NCBI RefSeq assembly: GCF_009914755.1 | Contig: NC_060940.1 | Source of the DNA: the human T2T-CHM13v2.0 reference genome, Homo sapiens | Length of the DNA stretch: 64,000 nt | Strand: one strand, 5' to 3' | Shown: one piece after another, positions 14,870-32,139 of the stretch | Layout: the number at the start of each line of letters is the position of its first letter | Position numbering within the stretch: position 1 is the first letter of the stretch | Made by a program: the position numbers and the translations under genes | Notes under the pieces: model-generated | Seen by the model: the letters and a program-made list of their open reading frames with translations, nothing else | What the model was told of the DNA's origin: nothing | Database searches by the model: none

Positions 14870-15420
14870 GACTGAGCGGTGGGCCAGGACAAGCAACGGA
14901 TGAAGTATCTCGGAAGCCGGAGAAGGGTGGTCTGGGGCTCTTGGGAGCATGCGCGGGGTGGGGCGGTGGGGGGACTGAGGTGGCGCTCCCGGCTCCTCCG
15001 CGCGCCCCCGGCACCTTCCGCGCGTCCCCGGCTCCCCACACTCCGTCCCCGGCTCCCCACACTCCCACCCCGGTCTGCCCCGGGCGCCCCCGGTTCCCCA
15101 CCTCCTGGTGTGCCTCTGGCGGGTCCGCGCAGGATCAGGCTACAGACTCGCCCGCGGGCGGCTGCGCGGCGGGCCGTTGGGGAGGGTGTTGGGATGAGGA
15201 GCCCCAACCAGATGGACGCGCACCCCGCAGCGGCGGAGGCGGCGGCGAGGCTTGAGCAGTGAGTGCTCGGGAGCCCCGGCCAGCCCTTCCTCCTTCTGCC
15301 TGCGTCCTCTGCGCTGGCCGCTGCTCCAGACGCCAGGGGGCCCACCCGCTGCCCGTGGTCGGCGCGCGGAGCTCGAAAGCGCGCGCCTCTAACAAATGAA
15401 AACCCATAGGGACTTAGGGT
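14870..15420 (+). promoter_or_regulatory. CpG island: promoter and non-coding first exon of a vestigial ABCA gene (Abca14-like), donor GCA|GTGAGT at 15258/15259
   Basis: Dense CpG, GC box and GGC repeats. Co-linear homology with the 32.9-33.3 kb island, including the splice donor position. Confidence 0.7.
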
Positions 15421-15589
15421 TGAATTTTAACTTTTTTTTTTTTTTGGCTTATTGTTTAGTGCTAGATAGAAGGGTTTGAGCGGTGTAGTCAATTTTGGTG
15501 CTAGTCTGACTTGAGGCAACGTGACGTGACCTACGCGTCTCATCAGTAATGCAGAAATAACATTTTATCCACTTCATCGGGCTTTTCTT

Positions 15590-16490
15590 TTTCTTTTTCA
15601 GAAAATTGAGGTAAAATTCAAATAACATAAATTTCACCTTTTTTACCCTTCAAAGTGCACAGTTCCCTGACTTTTAGTATATTCACGATGTTGTGCGACC
15701 AACACTACCATCTAATCCCATTTTCATCACCCCCCAAATAAACCCTGTACTCATTCAGTTACATCCCATTCTCCTCTCCCCACTGCCTCTCCCAATTGCC
15801 AATCTACTTTTTTGTTTGTGGATTTGTAGGTTCTAGACATTTCTTTCTTTCTTTCTTTCTTTTTGTCTCCAGCTGCATCTACATTGCTGCAGAGGACATA
15901 ATTCCATTCATTTTTATGGCTGTATAGTATTCCATAGTGTATATGTACCACGTTTTCTTTATCCAATCCACCATTGATAGGCACCTAGGTTGATTCTATG
16001 TCTTTGCTATTGTGAATGATGCTGCAATGAACATACAGACGCATGTATCTTTTAGTAGAATGATTTATTTTCCTTTGCGTATATACCTAGTAATGGGAAT
16101 GCCGGGTCAAATGGTAGTTCTAAGTTCTTTGAGAAATCCCCAAACTGCTTTCCACAGTTTCTGAACAAATTTACATTCCCACCAACAGTGTATAAGTGTT
16201 CTCTTTTCTCCACAGCCTCACCAGCATCTGTTTTTTGACTTTTTAATAATTGCCATTCTGACTGATGTGAGATGATATTCCATTGTGGTTTTTATTTGCA
16301 TTTCCCTGATGACTGGTGATATTGAGCATTTTTTCATATATTTTTTGGTTACTCGTATGTCTTCTTTTGAGAAATGTTTGTTCCTTTTGCCCATGTTTTA
16401 TTTGGGTTATTTGTTTTTGGCTTGTTGAATTGTTTCAGTTCCTTGTAGTTTTGTATATTAGACCCTTGTCAGATGCATAGTTGCAAAATA
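15590..16490 (-). mobile_element. L1 (L1PB/L1MA 3' end nested in an older L1M)
   Basis: Antisense L1 3' sequence: tttttatggctgtatagtattccatagtgtatatgtaccac. Confidence 0.8.
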
Positions 16491-18600
16491 AACTTGGGGC
16501 TTATGATACTTCGCCTGATTATTTACATAAAACACAGTGGGCATAGTGAATGGCTTTTAAAAGTTGGCTTTGCTGGGACTTTTATACTAAATTTTGGATT
16601 AGACTTTTAAAAGTCTTGAGGCTAGGAAGCCAAACCAAGTATTTGCTTGGCTGTATCTGTAATACCTGTATGAATTGGGTTAATTTCTCTCTTCTTGAGT
16701 TCCCAAAATATACTGAGGCTCGTGGCCCTGCCAGAAAGTGACATTCTTTACTTAGTGCAAGCACAGAAACCATACAAGGGAACTGTGTAGACAAGGAACC
16801 ATGCCAGACTTTCCAAAGGGCTTTTTATCAGCACTATAAAATTGTAAAGCTAATCTCAATTCCTCCAAGCAGTCTGGTCATCTCTGAAAATATGCCATTC
16901 CAGCCAAAGCCTTGATAAAATAGCCAGTGTATCTAATTATGTCCTGTTATAAAATAAAACAGATCCTTATTGAACTTATGCAAATAACTATTTTGCCATA
17001 AATTAAGAATACTCACAGTTTCCAAATTTGGGAGAAATCCAGTAGTGAGAAAGGCAAATGCTTCAAATTTGCCCACAAAGGTATATTTACCCAATTTTTG
17101 TAAGCTATGAATAGCTCAAAAGAAAAAAGGTTTATTAACTCTGGAAGCAAAACATAAAAAGAATCAGCAATGTTTCAAGCAAAAAAGTTATTAAAAATCA
17201 TCTTTGTCCTCTATCAGTTTAGTCCCATGTAGCTAATTATTATTCCACTTGATGTTGGGTTAGCAACCCTCATGAATGCATCAGGTTTTTTATTAGAGCT
17301 CTGGAAGTTTTTGCCCACTCCAATGGTGTGATCTCCAAAGTTATCAGAAACCTGGATTCAAGAGTACTTGTCATAGTTCTTTCCATGAAGTTCCTTAAGA
17401 AGAAGCCAATTTTGGACTGTAGCTGATTATAAACCACTTTTTGAGAAGAATCAAAATAAAACAATAATTGAGAATGACAAATCTCTTAGAATAGACATAG
17501 TTAAAGACAGAATTTTTTTTTTTTTTTGAGACAGAGTCTCACTCTATCGCCCAGGCTGGAATGCAATGGCGTGATCTCAGCTCACTGGAACCTCCACCTC
17601 CTGGGTTCAAGCAATTCTCTTGCCTCAGCCTCCCAAGTAGCTGGGATTACAGGCGCCGGCCACCACGCCCAGCTAATTTTTTTTTTTTTTTTTTGTATTT
17701 TTAGTAGAGGATTTTGCCATGTTGGCCAGCCTGGTCTTGAACTCCTGACCTCAGGTGACCCACCCGCCTCGGCCTCCCAAATTGCTGGAATTACAGGCAT
17801 GAGCCACCGCACCCAGCCTAAAGACATAATTGACAAGGATATTTGATTATTTCTGTGGCATACAATTTAACATCATTGTAATGATTACCGATAACATATA
17901 CCAAGACATATCAGAATTGTAGGAATTTCTTACAATTTTGGAACATACTTTAATAACACTTTTATGTAAATATGACTCAAAGAAAGTCAAGCACCATTTC
18001 TTATTTGCCAGTGTTTCCTATATAATTTTAACATATTAAATAAGCCTACTATGTCTCTCTTGGACATCTAGGAGTTCCTTTTGGAAGATACTTAATTTTA
18101 GGCCGGGCGCAGTGGCTCACTCCTGTAATCCCAGCACTTTGGGAGGCCAAGGCGGGTGGATCATGAGGTCAGGAGATGGAGACCATCCTGGCTAACACGG
18201 TGAAACCCCATCTCTACTAAAAATACAAAAAATTAGCTGGGCGTGGTGGTGGGCGCCTGTAGTCCCAGCTACTAGGGAGGCTGAGGCAGGAGAATGGCGT
18301 GAACCCAGGAGGCGGAGTTTGCAGTGAGCCAAGATCACGCCACTGCACTCCAGCCTGGGCGACAGAGCGAGACTCCGTCTCAAAAAAAAAAAAAAGGAAA
18401 ATACTTAATTTTAGAATTTGAAATTTGATTTTTGGAAGTATGTCAAATACTAAAGGCTTAAAACACTTCATCAAAATAGAATCACTGGTCACTGTAAAAT
18501 AATAGTCATTCATTTACTCAAAGTGATAATTCAAAGATTTCAAATAGAAAAGCCTTTACTCTTTGTTAGAGAGGAAATTGTTTTCCAAACAACCATAAGA
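16490..18600 (-). mobile_element. ERV1 (MER4-group) internal fragment with two Alus
   Basis: AT-rich sequence typical of MER4-int-like elements. No coding capacity. Confidence 0.5.
17513..18400. mobile_element. Two Alus (17513-17818 minus; 18101-18395 plus, AluY-like)
   Basis: Dimers. The second has AluY diagnostics (gagaccatcctggctaacacgg, gagaatggcgtgaacc) and TSD aa.atacttaatttta. Confidence 0.93.
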
Positions 18601-18624
18601 CCTATTTTTTGGTAGAGTTTGAGA

Positions 18625-31269: not shown

Positions 31270-31656
31270 GTGATGGTAGAAATCTTGCCCTTGTAACATT
31301 GCATGTTAAGTAAGAGAGCACTAATGGTGGGGAGTATTTGGGATTCGGGCATTTGGAATGGGAGCCTGGCATTGTTGGGAGGAGCAGCAGCGTTAGGTTA
31401 CTTTCCAAACACCCCTAGAGTTTAATTGCCTTGATTTCTTCCCCTAAATCCGACTATTAGTCCATGTCCATCAAGAGATGGCCTCCTCTCACTTTCTCAA
31501 TTCTCTGTTCTTCCGCCTTCTCACCTCACCCTTCTGTGCCTTTTGTCCTCCAACATACACTTGATAGGAGTGGGGGAGTGGAGGAGAGGCTCATCTGAGT
31601 TGGGGGCTGAAGGGGAGATTGCAATGGTAACTGTGTTTTTATTGCTGTTGTTAAAG

Positions 31657-31793
31657 GTGTTTGGCATTTTGGAGCAAGCTAAAGAGCAATTTGATTTAGA
31701 AGACTATTCTGTCAGATCACACTGGAACAAGTCTTCCTGACCTTTGCTAACCCAGAGAAATCATCCAGTGATGATGAAAACGAGGTGCCATGA
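31657..31793 (+). pseudogene. ABCA terminal pseudo-exon (Abca14-like remnant) with frameshift
   Basis: After ttaaag| it reads VFGILEQAKEQFDLEDYSV, then in a shifted frame QITLEQVFLTFANPEKSSSDDENEVP* (TGA 31791-31793). This matches the hallmark ABCA C-terminal motif DYSVSQ.sLEQVF. Confidence 0.92.
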
Positions 31794-31862
31794 GATTCCC
31801 TCTTAAAAAAAAAAAAAAAACAGAAAAAGAAAAAAAAAAGAAATGCCCTACACGTGAGTCCC

Positions 31863-31868
31863 AATAAA
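31863..31868 (+). terminator. AATAAA polyadenylation signal of the vestigial ABCA gene
   Basis: Canonical hexamer 70 nt after the ancestral stop codon, followed by T/GT-rich sequence (ttctttggtctgttgg). Confidence 0.6.
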
Positions 31869-32139
31869 CTCATCTACTCATCAAGCTGGACTGGTCTGAG
31901 TCATTCTTTGGTCTGTTGGCTCCTTTCCCAGTTTGGGGCGGAGGATGTTCTATACAGTCCTGGATTTTTCCCCAACCAGGAAGAGAACTCCTTGTCCTGC
32001 AGTGTTCCTCTTGCGCCCTCTCCTGACAAAGCTTAACTTCGGAGCTGGAGCAAGTCGTATCCGGCATTGCAGGGAAGAGTGAATTTGGCCTGTGATCCAA
32101 TCAGAAGCTGCGATTCTAAACAGGAAGCCACACTGGATG

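What the first reader, a model, noticed from the sequence alone, without database searches (positions are those of the whole stretch)
14870..31890. A hidden, collapsed ABCA transporter gene (probable unitary Abca14 pseudogene) immediately upstream of CRYM
Seen: four same-strand, correctly ordered remnants. These are a CpG promoter/first exon with a GT donor (15258), a TMD2 exon (22470-22630), the penultimate exon (31202-31269), and the last exon with stop and AATAAA (31657-31868). None is obvious from the ORF track. Known: ABCA3-like genes have about 30 exons, and rodent testis-expressed Abca14/15/16 lie in tandem next to Crym. Inference: this is the first gene of that cluster, reduced to about 17 kb by at least two large deletions while keeping both its promoter and its poly(A) signal. 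It could therefore still be a complete transcription unit (lncRNA) divergent from CRYM. I recall an annotation only for the second gene.
Basis: partly seen in the sequence, partly recalled or inferred. Interest (0 to 1): 0.85.

Follow-up and report, generated by a model that had tools for sequence, protein, structure and literature searches.

The report
Collapsed ABCA14 pseudogene beside CRYM
This stretch holds the few surviving pieces of a dead lipid-transporter gene of the ABCA14-16 cluster, a relic already published in 2008 as ABCA14P, so it is real but ordinary.

Summary
All four same-strand pieces exist:
- a CpG island with a GT donor (14801-15450);
- a TMD2 exon (22470-22630);
- a penultimate exon (31203-31269);
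- a last exon with stop and AATAAA (31657-31868).

Mammalian ABCA3-like proteins match the three coding pieces (tblastn E 5e-17 to 1e-6). They match nothing else on the + strand between 14 and 32 kb, so about 93% of a roughly 1,680-residue gene is gone.

It is not hidden in print. Piehler et al. 2008 list ABCA14P at 16p12.2 with a 9,246-bp span, which fits the distance from the TMD2 exon to the last exon. RefSeq does not annotate it.

Details added here:
- The CpG island has a 277-bp paralogue, donor included, at the head of ABCA15P.
- The TMD2 exon is ABCA14-type and carries a 1-nt deletion, not two nonsense codons.
- The two 3' exons cannot be assigned to ABCA14 rather than its neighbour. 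Their best match (63 of 66 residues) is the C-terminus of an intact Old World monkey protein whose N-terminus matches ABCA15P.
- The only annotated transcript that uses a remnant starts in an LTR12-like element, not at the CpG island.

No evidence supports a promoter-to-poly(A) lncRNA. Interest is low.

The parts
14801..15450 (+). CpG island (CGI-1), the putative old promoter and non-coding first exon of the first cluster gene. Its conserved block is 15120-15396 and a GT donor follows 15258.
   Evidence: GC 0.68 and CpG o/e 0.81. Block 15120-15396 is 74.8% identical over 290 aligned bases (E 4e-45) to 33043-33318 on the same strand, and these are the only two copies in the window. The alignment keeps a GT at the donor in both copies. 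No transcript is annotated here in the hub table, so promoter activity is inferred, not shown.
21010..21860 (+). LTR12-like (ERV9 LTR) element. It contains exon 1 (21762-21794) of the RefSeq lncRNA LOC105371125.
   Evidence: There are 24-nt and 66-nt tandem units with CCAAT at 7 places between 21212 and 21374, and an inverted copy at 21010-21142. The sequence was read. The features fit passages of the LTR12 review PMC11853044. The family name is partly from recall, because no repeat library was available.
22470..22630 (+). Remnant of a TMD2 coding exon of ABCA14 type, reused as exon 2 of LOC105371125.
   Evidence: tblastn E 3e-10 to 5e-17. The top 12 of 120 proteins by score are all clade A. 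In the ML tree of this exon it joins clade A with SH-aLRT 93.9. Both splice sites are intact. There is a 1-nt deletion near 22589-22590.
24547..25251 (+). Terminal exon of LOC105371125. It is not ABCA-derived.
   Evidence: Coordinates come from the hub table. An AG precedes 24547 and ATTAAA lies at 25122. It has no ABCA protein hit.
30280..30385 (+). Last few codons of the antepenultimate exon plus the start of the intron behind it. This marks the upstream edge of the surviving 3' block.
   Evidence: One rhinoceros gene model (P0094) reads through this intron. It matches 4 of 5 exon residues, then 16 of 20 and 5 of 8 read-through residues. E is 4e-6 against the window. The rest of that exon was not recognisable with 4 other proteins.
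31203..31269 (+). Remnant of the penultimate coding exon (C-terminal regulatory domain), lacking 2 codons.
   Evidence: 88 of 120 proteins hit it at E <= 0.01. The best is P0089 at E 1.2e-6 with 20 of 22 residues identical. Splice sites were checked.
31657..31885 (+). Last exon. Coding runs 31657-31713 and, after a 4-nt loss, 31716-31790, with stop at 31791-31793. The 3' UTR has an A-rich run and AATAAA at 31863-31868.
Evidence: Translations are. 110 of 120 proteins hit it; the best, P0089, is identical at 19 of 19 and 24 of 25 residues. Pfam R1_ABCA1 gives E 3.9e-4 and PDB returns ABCA3. The poly(A) signal is.
33043..33318 (+). Context: the paralogue of the CGI-1 block, inside the CpG island that heads ABCA15P.
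   Evidence: CpG islands lie at 32051-32500 and 32551-33400.
47203..48417 (+). Context: the start-codon exon (47203-47262) and the next coding exon (48154-48417) of the neighbouring gene ABCA15P, which is clade B type.
   Evidence: P0089 is identical at 18 of 20 and 82 of 88 residues, and chimpanzee P0131 at 100% and 96%. Clade B beats clade A in 9 of 9 species pairs for the second exon.

Best explanation
The region is what is left of the first, CRYM-proximal gene of the testis ABCA14-16 cluster. It is the locus published as ABCA14P. It makes no transporter.

Of a gene that encodes about 1,680 residues in other mammals, these parts survive in about 17 kb:
- the 5' CpG island;
- one TMD2 exon;
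- a 1.6-kb 3' block holding the tail of the antepenultimate exon, the penultimate exon, and the last exon with its poly(A) signal.

Everything between was removed by at least two large deletions. The survivors carry only small lesions: a 1-nt, a 6-nt and a 4-nt deletion.

The 5' island and the TMD2 exon are of ABCA14 type. The 3' block has the sequence type now carried by the neighbouring ABCA15-lineage gene of Old World monkeys. Either gene conversion between the tandem genes produced this, or the block is a leftover of a lost tandem copy of the neighbour.

The present-day activity that is annotated is incidental. An LTR12-like element 680 bp upstream of the TMD2 exon supplies a start and a donor, and the old exon's intact splice sites are reused in a short lncRNA.

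Shown: the pieces, their homology, the losses and the paralogy of the islands. Inferred: the deletions as mechanism, the promoter role of the island, and the conversion.
For: Homology and collinearity:
- tblastn of 120 mammalian ABCA3-like proteins at E <= 0.01 hits the + strand between 14 and 32 kb only at 22310-22662 (93 proteins), 31126-31272 (88) and 31651-31868 (110), plus one single-protein hit at 30121-30369. A relaxed run at E <= 5 added nothing collinear.

Loss of the nucleotide-binding domains:
- No Walker A, signature or Walker B motif lies on the + strand of the window.
- Among 225 + strand open frames of 25 or more residues in 13956-32395, the only ABC family hit is R1_ABCA1 in the last exon.

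ABCA14 type of the TMD2 exon:
- A tree of 114 proteins gives three clades, and all proteins named Abca14 (mouse, pig, cow, hamsters) fall in clade A.
- Mean identity of the exon is 0.44 to clade A (n 69), 0.34 to clade B (n 26) and 0.27 to clade C (n 11).
- The exon tree puts it with clade A at SH-aLRT 93.9.
- Pairing it with the primate clade B protein is rejected (p-AU 0.037), as is pairing it with the four Euarchonta clade B rows (0.029).
- It carries the clade A motif PIYNLGMSI, not the clade B motif PNYNLAKC.

Head of a tandem gene:
- CGI-1 block 15120-15396 matches 33043-33318, with the donor GT kept.
- The neighbour's start-codon exon lies downstream of that second island.

Position of the 3' end:
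- The extended tails of two clade A gene models match just downstream of the last exon: hare at 32149-32220 (E 0.004) and hippopotamus at 31991-32023 (10 of 11 residues).

Prior print:
- ABCA14P is listed at 16p12.2, hg18 chr16:21210041-21219286, unprocessed, with no transcription evidence and parent Abca14 (Table 1 passage; methods section).
- Its 9,246-bp span lies inside the 9,027-9,323 bp allowed by the two outer exons.

The lncRNA: hub table.
Against: The 3' exons do not show ABCA14 ancestry:
- Their best match is P0089, a clade B protein (20 of 22, 19 of 19 and 24 of 25 residues).
- That identity of 0.95 lies above the 0.66-0.82 seen between clade A and clade B proteins of one species in 8 pairs.
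- Species-pair comparisons are undecided. Penultimate exon: A>B in 6 and A<B in 4 of 10. First part of the last exon: 2, 5 and 3 ties of 10. Second part: 3, 3 and 2 ties of 8.

For the TMD2 exon:
- Holding it with clade B costs only 0.54 log-likelihood units (p-AU 0.49).
- Species pairs give A>B in 6, A<B in 3 and 1 tie of 10.

Other gaps:
- No primate clade A protein with a name was available for comparison.
- The CpG island has no annotated transcript or RefSeq functional element in the hub table.
- The mapping of the hg18 interval to the window rests on the span and on recalled CRYM coordinates, not on a liftover.
- Mouse synteny is recalled. Only the title of Chen et al. 2004 was seen, in reference lists.
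Confidence: 0.8

Rival explanations
1. Mosaic by duplication. The 3' block (about 30.28-31.89 kb) was never part of ABCA14. It would be the tail of a lost tandem copy of the ABCA15-lineage gene, fused by deletion to the ABCA14 stump. On this reading 'ABCA14P' is two gene relics joined.
For: - The block's exons are 63 of 66 residues identical to the C-terminus of monkey protein P0089. The N-terminus of P0089 matches the ABCA15P exons at 47-48 kb.
- The Q in the motif VFGILEQ is shared only by the human exon and P0089 among the C-termini read.
- The published ABCA15P2 primer carries the ancestral E codon and matches the window with 1 mismatch in 20.
- The intron piece at 30307-30385 matches a clade B model's read-through.
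Against: - The junction would have to fall in the roughly 100 bp between the poly(A) signal and 31991, where the homology to the flank of clade A genes begins.
- The read-through tail of a monkey clade B isoform at the same exon end does not look like the human sequence (7 residues, judged by eye).
- Piehler et al. found mouse Abca14 to be the best mouse match for the whole interval.
- The C-terminus does not separate clades A and B at all. P0089's own last 70 residues match clade A at a mean of 49.9 and clade B at 51.1.
Confidence: 0.3
2. The island, the remnant exons and the poly(A) signal would still work as one transcription unit from about 15.2 kb to about 31.9 kb, divergent from CRYM.
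For: - The island keeps a high CpG content (o/e 0.81), which suggests it stays unmethylated in the germ line.
- All tested splice sites of the three exons and the AATAAA are intact.
- The TMD2 exon is spliced in a predicted RefSeq model (hub table).
Against: - The RefSeq table lists no transcript starting in the island or ending near 31885.
- The one model using a remnant starts at 21762 and ends at 25251.
- Piehler et al. found no EST or mRNA for ABCA14P (Table 1).
- The island lies 5.2 kb from the CRYM start, and CRYM has its own island at 9351-9800. It is therefore not a shared bidirectional promoter.
- No expression data could be searched here.
Confidence: 0.1
3. The CpG island at 15 kb no longer has anything to do with the ABCA relic. 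It would be kept as a distal regulatory element or unannotated alternative start for CRYM or another gene, and its likeness to the 33-kb island would reflect conversion between GC-rich islands.
For: - 75-81% identity over a non-coding block is high for a duplication older than the placental orders, which points to constraint or conversion.
- CRYM uses far-upstream alternative first exons at 10146-10252 and 34271-34355 (hub table).
Against: - No CRYM exon or RefSeq functional element is listed in the island (hub table).
- The conserved block keeps a + strand donor in both copies.
- The position fits the head of the tandem gene.
Confidence: 0.2

Closest known systems
ABCA14P (Piehler et al. 2008, BMC Genomics 9:165, PMC2329642)
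   Same: It has the same chromosome band and an unprocessed structure. Its span of 9,246 bp fits the distance from the TMD2 exon to the last exon. Its parent is given as mouse Abca14, and no transcript evidence is reported (Table 1 passage). I take it to be the same locus.
   Different: The paper's interval starts at the TMD2 exon and does not include the CpG island. In the passages read, it does not mention the clade B likeness of the 3' exons or the LTR12-started lncRNA. The paper's supplements were not opened.
ABCA15P (RefSeq NR_026675.1), the next gene in the window
   Same: It is a tandem, same-strand relic of the same cluster. Its CpG island is paralogous to CGI-1.
   Different: It keeps its start-codon exon and the next exon, is of clade B type, and is annotated as transcribed. 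The first gene has lost those exons.
ABCA17P next to ABCA3 (Piehler et al. 2006, PMC1579226; title and abstract listing only, plus a term search that found nothing on Abca14)
   Same: It is the human relic of a rodent testis ABCA3-like transporter, lying next to a live gene.
   Different: By its title, ABCA17P is a long, ubiquitously expressed, multi-exon transcript that shares a 5' end with ABCA3. No such transcript is known for this locus.
LTR12 (ERV9 LTR) driven lncRNAs (review PMC11853044, passages read)
   Same: An element with CCAAT-bearing tandem repeats lies just upstream of an annotated lncRNA start and feeds a downstream exon.
   Different: Here the captured exon is an ancient coding exon of a dead gene. 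The lncRNA is a predicted model only.

Membership tests
ABCA3-like (ABCA14-17) full transporter gene | Transmembrane domain of the ABC-2 type | tested here: met
   Only a fragment is present. Exon 22472-22629 aligns to residues that lie inside Pfam ABC2_membrane_3 in P0005 (158-304) and P0008 (16-98). Pfam and PDB give no hit with the human piece alone.
ABCA3-like (ABCA14-17) full transporter gene | Two nucleotide-binding domains with Walker A, signature and Walker B motifs | tested here: not met
   No such motif lies on the + strand. There is no ABC_tran hit in 225 open frames in 13956-32395. No tblastn hit to the nucleotide-binding parts of 120 proteins was found. It is therefore a relic, not a working member.
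ABCA3-like (ABCA14-17) full transporter gene | ABCA-type C-terminal regulatory (R1) domain | tested here: inconclusive
   Pfam PF23321 matches positions 55-73 of 75 at E 3.9e-4 and 20.8 bits, below the cut-off of 27. By tblastn, 110 of 120 family proteins match.
Orthologue of Abca14 (clade A) | Each remnant is closest to clade A rather than to its paralogues | tested here: inconclusive
   The TMD2 exon meets this on balance. The penultimate and last exons do not: their best hit is a clade B primate protein, and otherwise clades A and B are equal.
Orthologue of Abca14 (clade A) | Syntenic place: first gene after Crym, head to head | not testable with these tools
   The human side is seen in the hub table. 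The mouse order is recalled, and Chen et al. 2004 is not held. Indirect support comes from the flanks of hare and hippopotamus clade A models, which match just downstream of the last exon.
Unitary pseudogene | Disabling lesions and no working copy elsewhere in the genome | tested here: inconclusive
   The lesions are shown. The absence of a working human copy was not tested, because no human genome was held. Piehler et al. state that Abca14-17 have no documented human counterpart. None of the 77 clade A proteins in the tree is from a primate.
Transcribed pseudogene / lncRNA unit from island to poly(A) site | Transcripts that start at the island and join the remnants | not testable with these tools
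   No expression data were on hand. The RefSeq table shows only LOC105371125 (21762-25251). Piehler et al. report no EST or mRNA.

The most novel reading that the evidence does not exclude
The relic is a mosaic. Its 5' island and TMD2 exon descend from ABCA14. Its 1.6-kb 3' block was overwritten by, or donated to, the neighbouring ABCA15-lineage gene, which is still intact in Old World monkeys. If so, a dead gene's exons took part in gene conversion with a live neighbour in catarrhine primates. Meanwhile the CpG island and the splice-competent exon stay in use: the island as a regulatory element and the exon in an LTR12-started lncRNA.
Probability: 0.3. Interest if true: 0.35.

Novelty: already known. 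Interest (0 to 1): 0.2.

Why it matters
It matters little for biology at large. The locus is a dead gene that was catalogued in 2008.

It has some use in three ways:
- RefSeq on T2T-CHM13 does not carry ABCA14P. As a result, an old coding exon appears only as exon 2 of an 'uncharacterized' lncRNA.
- The window gives a compact picture of how the primate ABCA14-16 cluster decayed: large deletions, little point damage, a possible exchange between neighbours, and capture by an LTR.
- The neighbouring gene looks intact in Old World monkeys but truncated in apes. That dates part of the decay and could interest people who study sperm lipid transporters.

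Tried and rejected
- Word-index search with the 40-residue TMD2 piece, longer proteins: 2 candidates, none scored. I wrongly took this to mean the library held no mammals. One search showed that it does.
I then sent stop-to-stop frames instead.
- Pfam on 222 + strand frames of 30 or more residues in 32241-53328: no ABC family. This missed the two ABCA15P coding exons that tblastn later found, so the scan is insensitive. 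The third list (109 frames, 53.3-64 kb) was not sent; tblastn covers that part.
- PDB phmmer with the TMD2 piece, the penultimate exon and the second half of the last exon: nothing at E <= 10.
- tblastx of the three exons against the window: no second copy; the first and last parts of the cut listing show nothing below E 0.13, and part of the output was cut.
- Forward primer of ABCA15P2: no match within 3 mismatches.
- A - strand hit at 13724-13840 to the N-termini of three bat proteins (E 0.003-0.005; E 0.39 with P0005). It spans an exon junction, is hydrophobic and comes from related proteins, so I took it as chance.
- The rest of the antepenultimate exon: not recognisable with 4 proteins in any frame.
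- General concerted evolution of the 3' ends of clades A and B: not seen. A species' own clade B protein ranks first in only 2 of 8 pairs.
- Chen et al. 2004: not held.
- 'NR_026675': 0 papers.
- Piehler 2006: no mention of Abca14, Abca15 or 16p12.

Full report
**What is there**

- The stretch 14801-15450 is a CpG island with GC 0.68 and CpG observed/expected 0.81. A GT follows 15258, in the context GAGCA|GTGAGT.
- The exon 22470-22630 has a good acceptor and a GTGAGT donor.
- The exon 31203-31269 is preceded by AG and followed by GTGATG. It ends on a full codon.
- The last exon begins on a full codon at 31657.
- After 31713 the frame breaks. From 31716 it reads on to a TGA at 31791-31793. AATAAA lies at 31863-31868.

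**Is it ABCA, and more than chance?**

Taken alone, the short human pieces gave little.
- Pfam found only the ABCA1-like R1 regulatory domain in the last exon: E 3.9e-4 at 20.8 bits, against a cut-off of 27.
- The PDB search returned only human ABCA3, residues 1683-1702, E 0.099.
- The other pieces gave nothing.

The full scan of protein representatives with the 40-residue TMD2 piece found 6 proteins at E <= 0.001. One of them, P0005 (505 residues), carries ABC2_membrane_3 and ABC_tran.

With P0005 residues 1-330 the word-index library gave 199 hits, of which the best 120 were listed. All that bear an informative name are called ABCA3-like or ABCA14; several are labelled only 'hypothetical protein' or 'ABC transporter domain-containing protein'. 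They include proteins named Abca14 from mouse, pig, cow and hamsters.

Run against the window by tblastn at E <= 0.01, these 120 proteins hit the + strand between 14 and 32 kb only at:
- 22310-22662 (93 proteins);
- 31126-31272 (88 proteins);
- 31651-31868 (110 proteins);
- 30121-30369, a single-protein hit.

Best E-values are 5e-17 for the TMD2 exon, 1.2e-6 for the penultimate exon and 5e-16 for the last exon. The three coding remnants are real, ordered and on one strand.

**How much is missing?**

The three pieces cover about 120 of about 1,680 residues.
- No Walker A, signature or Walker B motif lies on the + strand of the whole window.
- Of 225 + strand open frames of 25 or more residues in 13956-32395, the only ABC family hit is the R1 domain of the last exon.
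- A relaxed tblastn at E <= 5 added nothing collinear.

The surviving exons are only lightly damaged. Decay by point mutation therefore cannot explain the missing exons. Large deletions are the reasonable inference, at least one on each side of the TMD2 exon.

The downstream deletion ends near 30.28 kb. A rhinoceros gene model (P0094) reads through the intron behind the antepenultimate exon. It matches 4 of the last 5 exon residues at 30280-30294, then 16 of 20 and 5 of 8 read-through residues up to 30385. The rest of that exon could not be recognised with four other proteins.

**Lesions**

The shifted frame 22591-22629 is open and aligns with homologues.
- The penultimate exon lacks 2 codons.
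- The last exon lacks 4 nt after 31713.

**The island**

Self-comparison showed that 15120-15396 is 74.8% identical over 290 aligned bases (E 4e-45) to 33043-33318 on the same strand. These are the only two copies in the window. The alignment keeps the GT of the donor in both copies.

The second copy lies in the CpG island (32051-33400) that heads ABCA15P. That gene's start-codon exon (47203-47262) and next coding exon (48154-48417) were found downstream.

So each of the two tandem genes begins with a related island. That it still works as a promoter is not shown. The hub's RefSeq table lists no transcript or functional element there.

**Which paralogue?**

A tree of the 114 proteins of at least 1,400 residues (6 shorter ones were left out) gives three clades.
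- Clade A has 77 proteins. It holds every protein named Abca14 and no primate.
- Clade B has 26 proteins, among them a langur (P0089), a galago, a colugo and a tree shrew.
- Clade C has 11 proteins.

*The TMD2 exon is of clade A type.*
- The top 12 of 120 hits are all clade A.
- Mean identity is 0.44 to clade A (n 69), 0.34 to clade B (n 26) and 0.27 to clade C (n 11).
- I built an ML tree of this exon alone with 61 rows: 27 A, 23 B, 10 C and the query. Isoforms and gappy rows were left out. In it the exon joins clade A with SH-aLRT 93.9.
- Holding it with P0089 is rejected (p-AU 0.037). Holding it with the four Euarchonta clade B rows is also rejected (0.029).
- It carries the clade A motif PIYNLGMSI rather than the clade B motif PNYNLAKC.

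Against this, holding it with all of clade B costs only 0.54 log-likelihood units (p-AU 0.49). Species pairs give A>B in 6, A<B in 3 and 1 tie of 10.

*The two 3' exons behave differently.*
- Their best hit is P0089, with 20 of 22, 19 of 19 and 24 of 25 residues identical.
- The N-terminus of the same protein matches the ABCA15P exons at 47-48 kb, with 18 of 20 and 82 of 88 residues.
- Apart from P0089, clades A and B are not separable here.
- The 0.95 identity to P0089 lies above the 0.66-0.82 found between clade A and clade B proteins of one species in 8 pairs.

Two readings remain.
1. Gene conversion between the 3' ends of the tandem genes in catarrhine primates.
2. The block is the tail of a lost tandem copy of the neighbour.

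The hare model matches 32149-32220 (E 0.004) and the hippopotamus model matches 31991-32023 (10 of 11 residues).

For the second reading: the intron piece at 30.3 kb matches a clade B model. Also, the Q in VFGILEQ is shared only by the human exon and P0089 among the C-termini I read. The published ABCA15P2 primer has the usual E codon and hits the window with 1 mismatch in 20.

Short read-through tails of other models did not help. I cannot decide between the two readings with the data held.

**Prior knowledge**

Piehler et al. 2008 (PMC2329642; passages including Table 1, and methods section 12, were read) BLASTed the mouse Abca14-17 cDNAs against hg18. They list ABCA14P at 16p12.2, chr16:21210041-21219286, unprocessed and with no evidence for transcription. 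It lies between ABCC6P1 and ABCA15P1.

The 9,246-bp span falls inside the 9,027-9,323 bp allowed if the first hit lies in the TMD2 exon and the last hit in the coding part of the last exon. With my recalled CRYM coordinates, the interval maps to about 22.49-31.74 kb of the window. This is recall, not a liftover.

- 'ABCA14P' occurs in 1 paper of the library, this one.
- 'ABCA15P' occurs in 2 papers.
- By the same offset, their ABCA15P1 would lie near 69.7 kb, outside the window.
- Chen et al. 2004, which described the mouse cluster, is not held. I saw only its title in reference lists.
- A review states that ABCA14-17 orthologues exist in dog, pig and cattle (passage).

**Transcription**

The hub's table lists the lncRNA LOC105371125, a predicted model, with exons 21762-21794, 22470-22630 and 24547-25251.

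Its first exon lies in an element (about 21010-21860) with 24-nt and 66-nt tandem units. The units bear CCAAT at 7 places between 21212 and 21374 and are followed by a GT donor after 21794. These features fit what an LTR12 review says of the U3 repeats (PMC11853044, passages). The family name also rests on my recall of the consensus, and no repeat library was on hand.

So the one annotated use of a remnant is LTR-started and ends 6.6 kb short of the old poly(A) signal. Nothing links the island to the remnants. Expression data could not be searched.

**Verdict**

The thing is a known, non-functional relic. The added details (island paralogy, true lesions, mixed affinity of the exons, LTR capture) are small.

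Noticed in passing
window 47203-47262 and 48154-48417 (+): ABCA15P keeps an open start-codon exon and an open 88-codon second coding exon. Related proteins are full length in Old World monkeys (langur 1641, mangabey 1522 residues) and a lemur (1581). They are short in chimpanzee (584) and orang-utan (232). The neighbour gene therefore seems alive in monkeys and truncated in apes. No further exon of these proteins lies in 48.4-64 kb.
   Followed up: partly
window 13272-13637 (+) and 34187-34538 (-): Two copies (80% identical over 366 bases) of what looks, from recall, like a THE1/MaLR-type LTR. The far-upstream alternative first exon of CRYM (34271-34355, - strand) lies inside the second copy, so that CRYM start may be LTR-derived.
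   Followed up: partly
window 32141-32628 versus 33043-33318: RefSeq's ABCA15P exon 1 lies about 400 bp upstream of the block that is paralogous to the 15-kb island and keeps a GT donor near 33180. The ancestral first exon may be the downstream block rather than the annotated one.
   Followed up: no
protein P0005 (unnamed record from the representatives library): This 505-residue model is of clade A type. It joins an N-terminus, the end of TMD2 and part of the second nucleotide-binding domain, and it ends in the last exon read out of frame. It looks like a gene model on another collapsed or mis-spliced ABCA14-type locus. It sits in the Euarchontoglires part of clade A (support 0.99).
   Followed up: partly
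window 21010-21142 (+) versus 21303-21436 (-): The LTR12-like element carries an inverted duplication of its CCAAT repeat region, 90% identical over 134 bases.
   Followed up: no
window 13724-13840 (-): A weak hit (E 0.003-0.005) to residues 8-46 of three bat clade B proteins, on the opposite strand between the CRYM start and the island. I took it as chance but did not exclude it.
   Followed up: partly
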